Positions 60,001 to 63,000 of a stretch of 64,000 nucleotides of DNA are shown here, piece by piece (positions within the stretch are counted from its first letter, which is position 1; every line of letters begins with the position of its first letter). Made by a program: the position numbers. This DNA comes from Fimbriimonadaceae bacterium (GTDB taxonomy: Bacteria > Armatimonadota > Fimbriimonadia > Fimbriimonadales > Fimbriimonadaceae): assembly GCA_041742595.1 (NCBI GenBank), contig JBGSIJ010000034.1, positions 1 through 64,000 of the forward strand, written 5' to 3'.

Positions 60001-63000
60001 GGTCAACGGTTCGCGGGTTGGGGAACTGCAAATGCTCCAACTCGGACTCCAAGCCAAGGCGGGTCCAGGACCGGGTTTGGGCGGGCTCGGTGCCCGGCCC
60101 CTCTCGCCGTTTGGCGTAGTCCAGCACTAGCCGATCGTAGGCGCGGTGGAACTCGTCGCCTTCAACGTCGCGGGTATTCCAGACCAGCGCCACCCAGCGA
60201 GGCGCCCGCAGAATGCGACGCCACTCCCGACGCGTGGACTCCGGCTCGAACCAGTGGAATGCTTGGGCGGCGGTCACCAGGTCGATGGTGTGCGAAGGCA
60301 AGTGGGTGTCCTCCGCCGTGCCCTTCCACACCGCGAGGTTTGGGGCATCGCCAAGGCTTGCCGCCAACTCTGAGCGCATCTCCTCGTTGGGTTCCACGGC
60401 GAACACGGTGGCCCCCTCATGGAGAAGAAGCGACGTAAAAATACCAGTTCCTGCCCCAATGTCCGCGACCGCACAGCCCGGACCCAGGCCGCACCGATCC
60501 CTCAGCGCCTCGATGGCGCCTCGGGGGTAGCTGGGGCGGAATCTGGCATAGACGGAGGCCCGTCCGGTGAAGCGTTCGGTGGGCTGAAGGGGCTCCATTC
60601 TTGTCCCGGATTATGCCGGTTCGGCCCGAAACTGGGCGCTAACCGCATCAATTACCAGGCGTAGCGGGCGGGCGGGCCACGCGTATAATGGTCCGGGAGT
60701 CACCAAGGACGGTGGAAACGGAAGTCGGGATACGGACGTTCCCTCCCTTCCCCTTGAGCCAACCCGCTTCGAGCGCCTCGCGGCCCGCCACCCCCTTCCA
60801 AACTCCTTTGCCATCCCCCAGCACGCCACGTGCTGGGGGTACAGGCTTCCGCGAGGAAGAGGCACCCCGCGACCCCGCGGCGTGTCCGCGGATGGCTCAA
60901 CGACGCAAACCCGAACTCCGGGTAGCCTCCCCTTCCCATGACGATCGAGGTGCTGGGATCCGGAAGCTGGGGAACCGCCCTCGCGGCGCTGCTCGCGCAG
61001 AACGGCCACGCCGTGCGTCTGCTTGGCCGATCCGCCGCTGAGATCGAGGACGTAAAGACCACCCGCCACAACTCCCGCTACCTCCCCGGAGTCGAGCTTC
61101 CCGCCAACCTAGAAGCCGGGCTGCTTGGCGAGGCCGCCAAAGCCGACATGCACGTGGTGGCGGTTCCCTCCCCTGCCGTCCGCGAGGTCTGCCAAGACCT
61201 GGCCGGCAAGGCCACCCTTACCGTGCTGGCCAGCAAGGGCCTCGAACCCGAATCGGGACGACTCATGACCCAGGTGGCGGAAGACGTGCTGGGCAAAGTC
61301 CGCATCGGCGCGCTGAGCGGGCCCAACCTCGCGGTAGAAATCGTCCACGGCATCCCCACCGCCGCCATCTCCGCCTTCCCCCTGGAAGCCGACGCCGAGA
61401 TAGTGCGCGAGGCGTTCATGTGCCGCAGCTTCCGCGTCTACAACAGCGGTGACGTGATCGGCGTGGAGCTGAGCGGCGCGCTCAAGAACGTGCTGGCCAT
61501 CGGCGCGGGCATGTCCGATGGGCTCGGCTTCGGCGACAACACCAAGGGCGCCCTCCTCTCGCGCGGGCTCCGCGAAATGATGCGCCTCGGCTCCGCCATG
61601 GGCGCCCGCGCCGACACCTTCATCGGCATTGCCGGCGTCGGGGACCTCTTCGCCACCGCCTCCAGCAACTTAAGCCGCAACTACCGCATCGGCCGCGCCG
61701 TCGGGCAGGGCAAAGATCTTCAGGAAGCCCTTGCCGAGATCGGCCAGGTCGCGGAAGGCGTGCAAACCGCCCGCGCCACCGTAAACCTAGCTGCCAAGTT
61801 CGGAGCCCCCATGCCCGTCTTCGGCGCGATCCACCAGGTGCTTACCGGCGACCTGCCCTGCCGCCAAGCCGTGTCGCTCCTAATGGAGCGAAGCACTAGG
61901 TACGAGGGAGACTCGTTCTAGGCACCACGCCCACTTCCCGCAGCGCTTCGCCCCAGATGGCGTATCCCTTGTCCGTGGGGTGAGTGCCGTCCGACAGGAT
62001 CTCAGATGAAATCGATCCGTCGGGCCGGCGAAGTTTCGGTCCGATGTCCAGAAAGGTGACCCCCTCCAGGGTCTTCGCCAGAATTTCGTTGAGTTGGGTA
62101 ATCCGGAGGTCCAGTTCGTTCCCCTTGTCAAAGCCACGTGGGAACACCGCCATCACGAAGATCTTGCTCTCCGGCGAGCGCTCCTTCAGCACGCGAACGA
62201 TCGCTCGAATCCCGGCGGCCACCTCTTCCGGAGTGTTGGTTCGCGCGGTCTCGTCGCCCACCAGGTTGTTGGTACCGATGTTGAGGACAACGCTCTTCGG
62301 CTTGAGCCCCTGGAACTCGCCATGTTGGAGGCGCCAAAGGACGTTCTGAGTACGGTCCCATCCGTAGCCCAGGTTCAGCGCCTTCACGCCCTGAAAGGTG
62401 GCCTTCCAGCTGGTCGGTCCGTTGCTCTGCGAGGACTTCGGTTCTCCGCCCCAGAAGTGCGTGATGGAGTCGCCGATCAGGGCCACGTCTGGGTTGCCCT
62501 TCTTCTGGGCGTCCAGCACGTCGGCGTGGCGGTGCAGCCAGTTGTACGAATCCCGCTCGAAGTTCACAACCGGGTCGATTGCGGAGTTGCGGGCCGGGTC
62601 TTCCAGTGGCGAAATGTAGAAGTCGTTGTACGCCTGGATCCAGGCGTCAGCCATCAGTTGGTGTCCGCTGGTGGTGGGGTGGATCCCGTCCCAGATCCAG
62701 TGCTCGGCGGCCGCCCGTTCGAGCGCCTTGCTGAATGCCTCCTGGAACCGGACAACCGGAGCGTTGTACTTGGAGGCAAGCCGATCCACCACGGAGCCAA
62801 CCTGGGCCACCGCCGCTGTCCACCAAGCGGCATCCTTGGCCACCATGCCGACCTTGAGGACGAACGGCTGCCCCAGGATCAGTTTGAGCTTGGGATTGGC
62901 GGCACGCGACCGGGCGAGCAACTCGTCGTACCGCCGCTCGATCTTCTGGATGTCAAGGGTCTTGCCCTGCGCCTGGTGCAGATCGTTGATGCCGATCAGC

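What a model noticed while it worked through the whole genome (the two positions that open the first line are those of the whole stretch)
60680..60755. Minimal three-GGA CsrA-sponge sRNA outside Gammaproteobacteria
A 55-nt non-coding three-way-junction RNA with ANGGA in both hairpin loops and in the junction starts just after a -10 box, is conserved across Fimbriimonadaceae, and has no fixed downstream gene; this genome keeps csrA but has no fliW or flagellin. It is likely a stand-alone CsrB/RsmZ-like sponge, the smallest known, that titrates CsrA. New if true: RNA antagonism of CsrA in a Terrabacteria phylum, acting beside FliW in most relatives and alone here.
Evidence so far: BLAST hit in 13 of 40 relatives; aligned set: ANGGA in junction and second loop 14 of 14, first loop 13 of 14. 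Exact pattern gave 43 loci in GTDB, nearly all Fimbriimonadales. Of 58 loci, 44 distinct sequences parsed: second stem fully paired 44/44 with compensatory changes, closing stem 39/44, -10 box 40/44. Downstream genes vary: gpsA, mntR, nitroreductase, namZ, pspA, or none. No Rfam hit at E<5. FliW in 53 of 61 order genomes, absent in G000; CsrA in 94% of the family.
(Added by a program. Inside this text positions count along the whole contig: contig position 1 is position 1 of the stretch shown here. "Call 12" and the like, gene names such as g00115 and contig names such as C1 are that model's own, and its searches are not shown. The text may have been shortened before it was handed on; [...] marks where a part breaks off. 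The agent that wrote the report below was given it as the finding of a first reader that could run no searches.)

Follow-up and report, generated by a model that had tools for sequence, protein, structure and literature searches.

The report
Cloverleaf CsrA-decoy RNA of Fimbriimonadales
A conserved 53-base folded sequence behind its own promoter-like box, found in about three quarters of one bacterial family, displays three loops shaped like binding sites of the translation repressor CsrA, so it is likely a tiny RNA decoy for CsrA, and it is kept in the genomes where CsrA's usual protein inhibitor is missing.

Summary
The element is real: window 60695-60747, 5-6 nt after TATAAT. A covariance model finds it strongly in 99 of 134 family genomes, usually one copy, and in three sister families, but in none of 19 genomes of a fourth and nowhere outside the order. 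Main correction: the 'junction' is probably a third mini-hairpin. One pair there flips U-A to A-U twice on the tree, and two related variants have a full 4-bp stem. So it is a four-way cloverleaf with three ANGGAN loops. The lineage's csrA start site sits in the same kind of hairpin (40 of 40). It is not a fixed leader: 13 of 40 copies face a convergent gene, and gpsA has its own -10 box. The three genomes lacking flagellin also lack FliW and CsrA N55, and all keep the RNA. Best reading: a stand-alone CsrA-titrating sRNA (0.68). Binding and expression are untested. It is in no Rfam family. The idea is not new: TwoAYGGAY and Bacillaceae-1 were proposed as such sponges in Firmicutes in 2014, and this scan noted similar candidates on other DNA. 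'Smallest known' is unverified.

The parts
60683..60689 (+). -10 element (G)TATAAT; predicted start about 60696; no TTG -35 in this copy
   Evidence: Sequence. Genome-wide, TANNNT ends 6 nt before ATG in 195 cases against about 22 per background position. Conserved before homologues, 32 of 40; TTG at -35 in 16 of 40 against 0.6% of controls.
60695..60747 (+). RNA core, 53 nt; closing stem P1 = 60695-60699 with 60743-60747
   Evidence: All 6 modelled P1 pairs show changes on both sides, 84% of cells paired.
60701..60714 (+). Hairpin P2, 4 bp, loop AAGGAC (site 1)
   Evidence: 99% paired, nearly invariant; one pair changes C-G to A-U in five genomes of genus g30.
60715..60726 (+). Middle element: predicted mini-hairpin (G-C, A-U, A.G) with loop ACGGAA (site 2)
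   Evidence: U-A 22, A-U 15, no mismatch in 37; A-U 27, U-A 16 in 43 distinct metagenome copies with these columns free; two flips on the RpoB tree; full 4-bp stem in G202, G242, G221. Counter-cases: G264 A.A; G230, G234, G220, G240, G029 lose the GGA and partly the pairs.
60727..60742 (+). Hairpin P3, 5 bp, loop ACGGAC (site 3)
   Evidence: 100% paired, 3 of 5 pairs with changes on both sides; 5/5 paired in 43 of 43 metagenome copies though the pattern did not ask for it.
60748..60767 (+). Pyrimidine-rich tail; 3' end unknown
   Evidence: The 20 nt after P1 are 71-72% C+T against 50% background; TTTT in only 9 of 40. No terminator called here. rho is present in G000.
60812..60849 (.). REP-like palindrome between the RNA and gpsA; not part of the RNA
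   Evidence: 10 further matches on 5 contigs; strong hairpin.
60922..60928 (+). Candidate -10 (G)TAGCCT of gpsA, 9 nt before its ATG
   Evidence: The only other TANNNT on + in the gap; a 9-nt spacing is enriched genome-wide, 81 against about 22.
60938..61921 (+). gpsA, NAD-dependent glycerol-3-phosphate dehydrogenase (neighbour only)
   Evidence: Pfam PF07479, PF01210.
59831..60598 (-). Methyltransferase, divergent neighbour
   Evidence: Pfam PF08241.

Best explanation
This is a conserved 53-nt structured sequence with its own -10 box that is likely transcribed as a stand-alone small RNA and likely binds and titrates CsrA through three ANGGAN loops on a predicted four-way junction. Shown: conservation, covarying P1 and P3, promoter-like box, variable neighbours, a CsrA that keeps the RNA-binding residues, and the same hairpin over csrA's own ribosome-binding site. 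Inferred: transcription from about 60696; a 3' end in the pyrimidine tail, perhaps set by Rho or by trimming back to P1; one CsrA dimer bridging loops 1 and 3 (26-30 nt apart), with the middle loop giving a second contact or a site for a second dimer; release of CsrA-repressed mRNAs such as csrA itself and, in flagellated relatives, flagellin. In most relatives it would act beside FliW. In G000, G019 and G052, where FliW was not found and CsrA lacks N55, it would be the only identified antagonist.
For: (1) Site shape: RsmE binds hairpins with ANGGAN hexaloops, SELEX stems were mostly 4 bp or fewer, and a dimer bridges sites 10-63 nt apart (PMC7652899, passages). Here GGA spacings are 13-16, 13-14 and 26-30 nt. 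The N position and the loop tail vary freely while A and GGA stay. (2) Independent lineage control: 40 of 40 csrA starts with an intact 5' end carry GCY-ANGGAR-GGC over the ribosome-binding site; many flagellin leaders carry ANGGA at or before it. (3) G000 CsrA aligns to RsmE/CsrA structures at E about 2e-17 and keeps L4 and R44. csrA is in 169 of 172 order genomes. (4) Stand-alone: nearest Pfam-supported downstream gene is convergent in 13 of 40, same-strand in 12 (8 unrelated families), unresolved in 15. (5) Flagellin is missing in exactly G000, G019 and G052 of 61; these lack FliW and are the only 3 of 42 CsrA read without N55, the residue needed for FliW binding (PMC13407953; bioRxiv 2020.07.02.184341). 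All three keep csrA, its leader hairpin and the RNA. The tree needs 2-3 losses. (6) A weak Rfam PrrB_RsmZ match (E 0.083, 23.9 bits, gathering 44) covers the G044 copy.
Against: No binding or expression data. Three sites is few for a sponge (CsrB has 22 GGA). The G000 minimum-energy fold pairs the middle and third sites with each other and is about 6 kcal/mol below the cloverleaf; the mini-hairpin adds no predicted stability. P2 and the middle ACGG are more invariant than CsrA binding alone requires. The RNA was not found in 34 of 35 re-searched family genomes or in 19 of 19 genomes of family f4, most of which have csrA. Co-occurrence with csrA has no power, because csrA is near universal and both csrA-less RNA carriers look like assembly gaps. 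Kept in 3 of 3 FliW-less genomes is expected about 4 times in 10 at 74% prevalence. Several Fimbriimonas-genus-level copies lose the middle GGA. No conserved terminator.
Confidence: 0.68

Rival explanations
1. CsrA binds, but as a stabiliser, chaperone or cargo for a base-pairing sRNA (McaS/SR1-like); the C/U-rich 3' part would pair with ribosome-binding sites.
For: Pyrimidine-rich tail; CCUCC in the P1 3' strand of one clade; CsrA promotes SR1-ahrC pairing in B. subtilis (PMC6546359, abstract); an sRNA-guided CsrA mechanism is listed (bioRxiv 2026.08.12.744399, listing only).
Against: The tail sequence is not conserved, and the P1 3' strand changes with its partner in other clades, so there is no conserved seed.
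Confidence: 0.12
2. The conserved core is a binding pocket or fold for another protein or a small ligand, and the GGA loops are secondary.
For: Near-invariant P2 and middle element over more than 80 copies; a compact four-way junction.
Against: The invariance relaxes in divergent copies while loop 3 A-GGA stays invariant in 19 of 19; no fixed downstream gene for a riboswitch; no Rfam match.
Confidence: 0.1
3. It is a 5' leader through which CsrA controls whichever gene follows.
For: 12 of 40 copies have a same-strand gene, several within 18-61 nt; no terminator.
Against: 13 of 40 face a convergent gene, 8 of them within 70 nt; same-strand genes are unrelated; conserved neighbours are upstream (PPIase, glycosyltransferase, LTD-like); gpsA has its own -10 and a repeat lies between.
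Confidence: 0.07
4. It encodes a small peptide from the invariant GTG in P2.
For: Invariant GTG with a GGA a few bases upstream.
Against: Frame lengths run from 13 to 300 codons in 40 copies; loop 3 length varies 5-7 nt; the paired flip changes two residues; stems covary.
Confidence: 0.03

Closest known systems
TwoAYGGAY (Rfam RF01731), proposed CsrA-binding RNA of Clostridia and Gammaproteobacteria
   Same: Hairpins with ANGGAY-type loops rising from one basal stem (bioRxiv 2026.09.22.753630, passages and Discussion; PMC4333381); CsrA binding proposed, not shown.
   Different: No model match (0 of 61 over cut-off). Here there is a third site, about 53 nt against a 168-position model, usually one copy with a conserved promoter; TwoAYGGAY in Pseudomonas is multi-copy, repeat-flanked and mobile-like.
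CsrB/CsrC and RsmX/Y/Z sponges (e.g. PrrB_RsmZ RF00166)
   Same: Non-coding, GGA in short hairpin loops, own promoter, predicted to titrate CsrA.
   Different: Below gathering score (best 23.9 of 44 bits); 3 sites rather than many; closed cloverleaf; no clear U-tail terminator; lineage mostly has FliW and N55-type CsrA, whereas FliW and these sRNAs are reported to anti-correlate (PMC4894983).
Bacillaceae-1 (RF01690), reverse strand
   Same: Short RNA with two CsrA-motif matches, proposed as a sponge in Bacillales (PMC4333381).
   Different: No Rfam match; strand uncertain there, fixed here by the promoter.
Campylobacter flaA mRNA leader acting as CsrA sponge beside FliW
   Same: RNA titration and FliW acting together; two hexaloop sites 21 nt apart (PMC4894983).
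   Different: That is an mRNA leader; this is a free-standing gene kept without flagellin.

Membership tests
TwoAYGGAY RF01731 | Covariance model score over gathering (43 bits) | tested here: not met
   No match in G000; 0 of 61 over cut-off; none at E<=10 locally.
TwoAYGGAY RF01731 | Hairpins with AYGGAY loops on a common basal stem | tested here: inconclusive
   Architecture alike, but loops are ANGGAN with any N, and a third site lies between.
CsrB/RsmX/Y/Z clan | Model score over gathering | tested here: not met
   One weak PrrB_RsmZ match in 10 loci, 23.9 against 44 bits.
CsrB/RsmX/Y/Z clan | Several GGA motifs in hairpin loops | tested here: met
CsrB/RsmX/Y/Z clan | Non-coding and separately transcribed | tested here: inconclusive
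   Conserved -10 and convergent neighbours; no transcript data.
CsrB/RsmX/Y/Z clan | Host encodes CsrA with RNA-binding residues | tested here: met
CsrB/RsmX/Y/Z clan | Binds CsrA and relieves repression | not testable with these tools
   Needs experiment.
CsrB/RsmX/Y/Z clan | Transcription driven by BarA-UvrY/GacS-GacA | not tested
   No search for an upstream activator box or regulator was run.
Cis-acting leader or riboswitch | Consistent same-strand downstream gene | tested here: not met
   13 of 40 convergent, 12 same-strand of unrelated families.

The most novel reading that the evidence does not exclude
A 53-nt cloverleaf is a complete CsrA sponge that arose independently of CsrB/Rsm in a FliW-bearing lineage. 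It let CsrA survive repeated loss of flagella, FliW and N55, so these genomes capture the switch from protein to RNA control of CsrA.
Probability: 0.4. Interest if true: 0.8.

Novelty: new variant of a known kind. Interest (0 to 1): 0.6.

Why it matters
Papers up to 2026 describe two CsrA control modes: sRNAs, principally in Gammaproteobacteria, and FliW elsewhere (PMC13407953), with the two anti-correlated (PMC4894983), and whether FliW cooperates with a dedicated sRNA is open. This order seems to hold both, and offers natural FliW-less, N55-less variants that keep the RNA. That makes the evolutionary hand-over testable with one 63-residue protein and one 53-nt RNA. The small size suits structure work on multivalent CsrA binding.

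Tried and rejected
Offset reading of the coordinates: rejected. Rfam: none at E<=10 for the window stretch; 4 weak matches in 10 homologue loci, one on the RNA. Phylum-wide model search: of 151 genomes, strong hits only in the order; best outside E 9e-5; some of those weak hits are single GC-ANGGAN-GC hairpins. Weak f4 hits with model R3 lie inside a coding ORF and were rejected. R3 scores for G029 and G038 are circular, as both were in its training set, which also held one stray 17-bit match; G038 rests on synteny with the f5 upstream gene (39% identity). Viral scan: 2 matches, neither with P3. csrA-less genomes as a co-loss test: G257 also lacks the neighbour ribF, and G285's ribF is cut at a contig end, so uninformative; G285's copy keeps three ANGGA with a slightly broken P3. 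Genome-wide scan for CsrA target hairpins in G000: no enrichment over control loops, and it missed csrA itself. Strand test by G-U against A-C cells: 16 against 15, uninformative. First tree run did not finish. The FastTree trees left out G022, G056, G012, G035 and seven f4 genomes; the first showed only one flip, the second flip appeared after adding four g30 genomes and G202. No complex was predicted, as that tool does not score RNA partners.

Full report
Location. The coordinates are window coordinates. The window is G000:C34:1-64000. TATAAT lies at 60684-60689 and the core at 60695-60747, between a divergent methyltransferase and gpsA.

Reality and range. The single sequence folds no better than shuffles, but BLAST found the core, and not its flanks, in 14 of 60 relatives at E<=0.005. 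Model R1, from 16 copies with the junction unpaired, hit 40 of 61 genomes at E<1e-7: 27 of 37 in the family, 10 of 10 in f5, 3 of 3 in f2, 0 of 10 in f4. Model R2 hit 99 of 134 family genomes at E<1e-7, one copy each except G015 with two identical ones. G029 and G038 (f3) hold divergent copies. A broader model left 34 of 35 other family genomes and 19 of 19 f4 genomes without a credible copy; these searches score only the top candidates of a first look. Of 151 phylum genomes only order members hit strongly. A metagenome scan gave 50 stretches, 43 distinct.

Structure. On 40 copies 93.5% of cells pair, with 97 cells changed on both sides against 29 in shuffles and at most 21 in slid controls; P1, P2 and P3 were fitted by the model, the middle pairs were not. 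P3 was 5/5 paired in 43 of 43 metagenome copies without being required. The first tree showed one flip. Genus g30, nested in the U-A clade, gave a second (G261, G262), with one A.A mismatch in G264. G202, G242 and G221 have a full 4-bp stem around an ANGGA loop; G263 keeps the closing pairs while its loop changes. I read this as G-C, A-U and an A.G pair closing an ANGGAN hexaloop, giving a four-way junction with 1, 0, 0 and 0 linking bases. Against: two flips are few, the hairpin adds no predicted stability, G000's lowest-energy fold is a different one 6 kcal/mol lower, f2 copies do not form it, and several g27 copies lose the middle GGA. I put the mini-hairpin at about 0.7.

Transcription unit. 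TANNNT precedes 32 of 40 genome copies and 38 of 42 metagenome copies with enough flank, against 3-7% of control windows. In G000 this box peaks 6 nt before start codons, which puts the start at the first bases of P1. The nearest Pfam-supported downstream gene is convergent in 13 of 40 copies and same-strand in 12; 15 are unresolved; 99 of 135 candidate ORFs were scanned. gpsA has its own candidate box, and a genome-wide repeat lies between it and the RNA. The 3' end is open: a C/U-rich tail, few U-runs, rho present.

The partner. csrA is in 169 of 172 order genomes. G000's 63-residue CsrA keeps the RNA-binding residues. All 40 csrA starts examined sit in a GCY-ANGGAR-GGC hairpin (two loci cut at contig ends were left out), evidence from outside the RNA that this lineage's CsrA reads such loops. 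FliW was found in 56 of 61 genomes; two of the five misses, G012 and G022, have csrA at a contig end and keep N55 and flagellin. The other three, G000, G019 and G052, lack flagellin and carry E or G at position 55 with a changed tail. All three keep the RNA; the tree needs 2-3 losses. This is suggestive only, since 74% of the family has the RNA anyway.

Mechanism. Most likely a constitutive-type promoter makes a 55-75 nt RNA that presents three CsrA sites. The outer two, 26-30 nt apart, fit one dimer by the 10-63 nt rule (PMC7652899, passages). It would compete with csrA and flagellin leaders. Transcription, binding and titration are all inferred.

Comparison. It works like CsrB/RsmZ but fails membership by model score. 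It most resembles TwoAYGGAY in layout (bioRxiv 2026.09.22.753630, passages and Discussion, its supplements closed; PMC2864571, supplement passages) and fails that model too. PMC4333381 (passages) proposed TwoAYGGAY and Bacillaceae-1 as the first CsrA-binding sRNAs outside Gammaproteobacteria, pending validation. PMC13407953 (2026, passages) still places sRNA antagonism principally in Gammaproteobacteria. Searches for this RNA in print found nothing relevant: 'Armatimonad + CsrA' gave one hot-spring survey, listing only; 'Fimbriimonas + small RNA' gave none; searches listed no such family. The library lacks most subscription papers. The scan's own notes hold at least eight similar candidates in other lineages, unchecked by me; none was found for this DNA.

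Verdict. A real, apparently undescribed RNA family; a new variant of a known kind; interest 0.6.

Noticed in passing
L032:1657-1700 (G000:C64, upstream of csrA) and L033-L061, L114-L123: csrA ribosome-binding site in a GCY-ANGGAR-GGC hairpin in 40 of 40 loci: likely direct CsrA autoregulation across the order.
   Followed up: yes
G000 genome-wide: (G)TANNNT peaks 6-9 nt before ATG, so many mRNAs are likely leaderless; this would limit what CsrA can repress.
   Followed up: partly
L032:1465-1656, L060, L114: CsrA of G000, G019 and G052 lost N55 and the conserved tail along with fliW and flagellin; in G000 csrA now lies between coaBC and ribF.
   Followed up: yes
window 60812-60849: REP-like palindrome with about ten further copies, five clustered on C81.
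   Followed up: partly
L302, L304, L309 (other families of the phylum): GC-closed ANGGAN hairpins: two in tandem in G183, one before a likely start in G136, repeated in G145; possible CsrA targets or unrelated sponges.
   Followed up: no
L079 and L111 (G015:C21, C10): Two identical-scoring copies of the RNA near contig ends; real duplication or assembly artefact.
   Followed up: no
window 63340-63998: ORF translations show two near-copies of a stretch of about 300 nt, suggesting a tandem non-coding repeat.
   Followed up: no
G279, G280: 1.5-Mb genomes of the family, 97% complete, keep csrA, fliW and 6-7 flagellin-domain genes, but the RNA was not found.
   Followed up: partly
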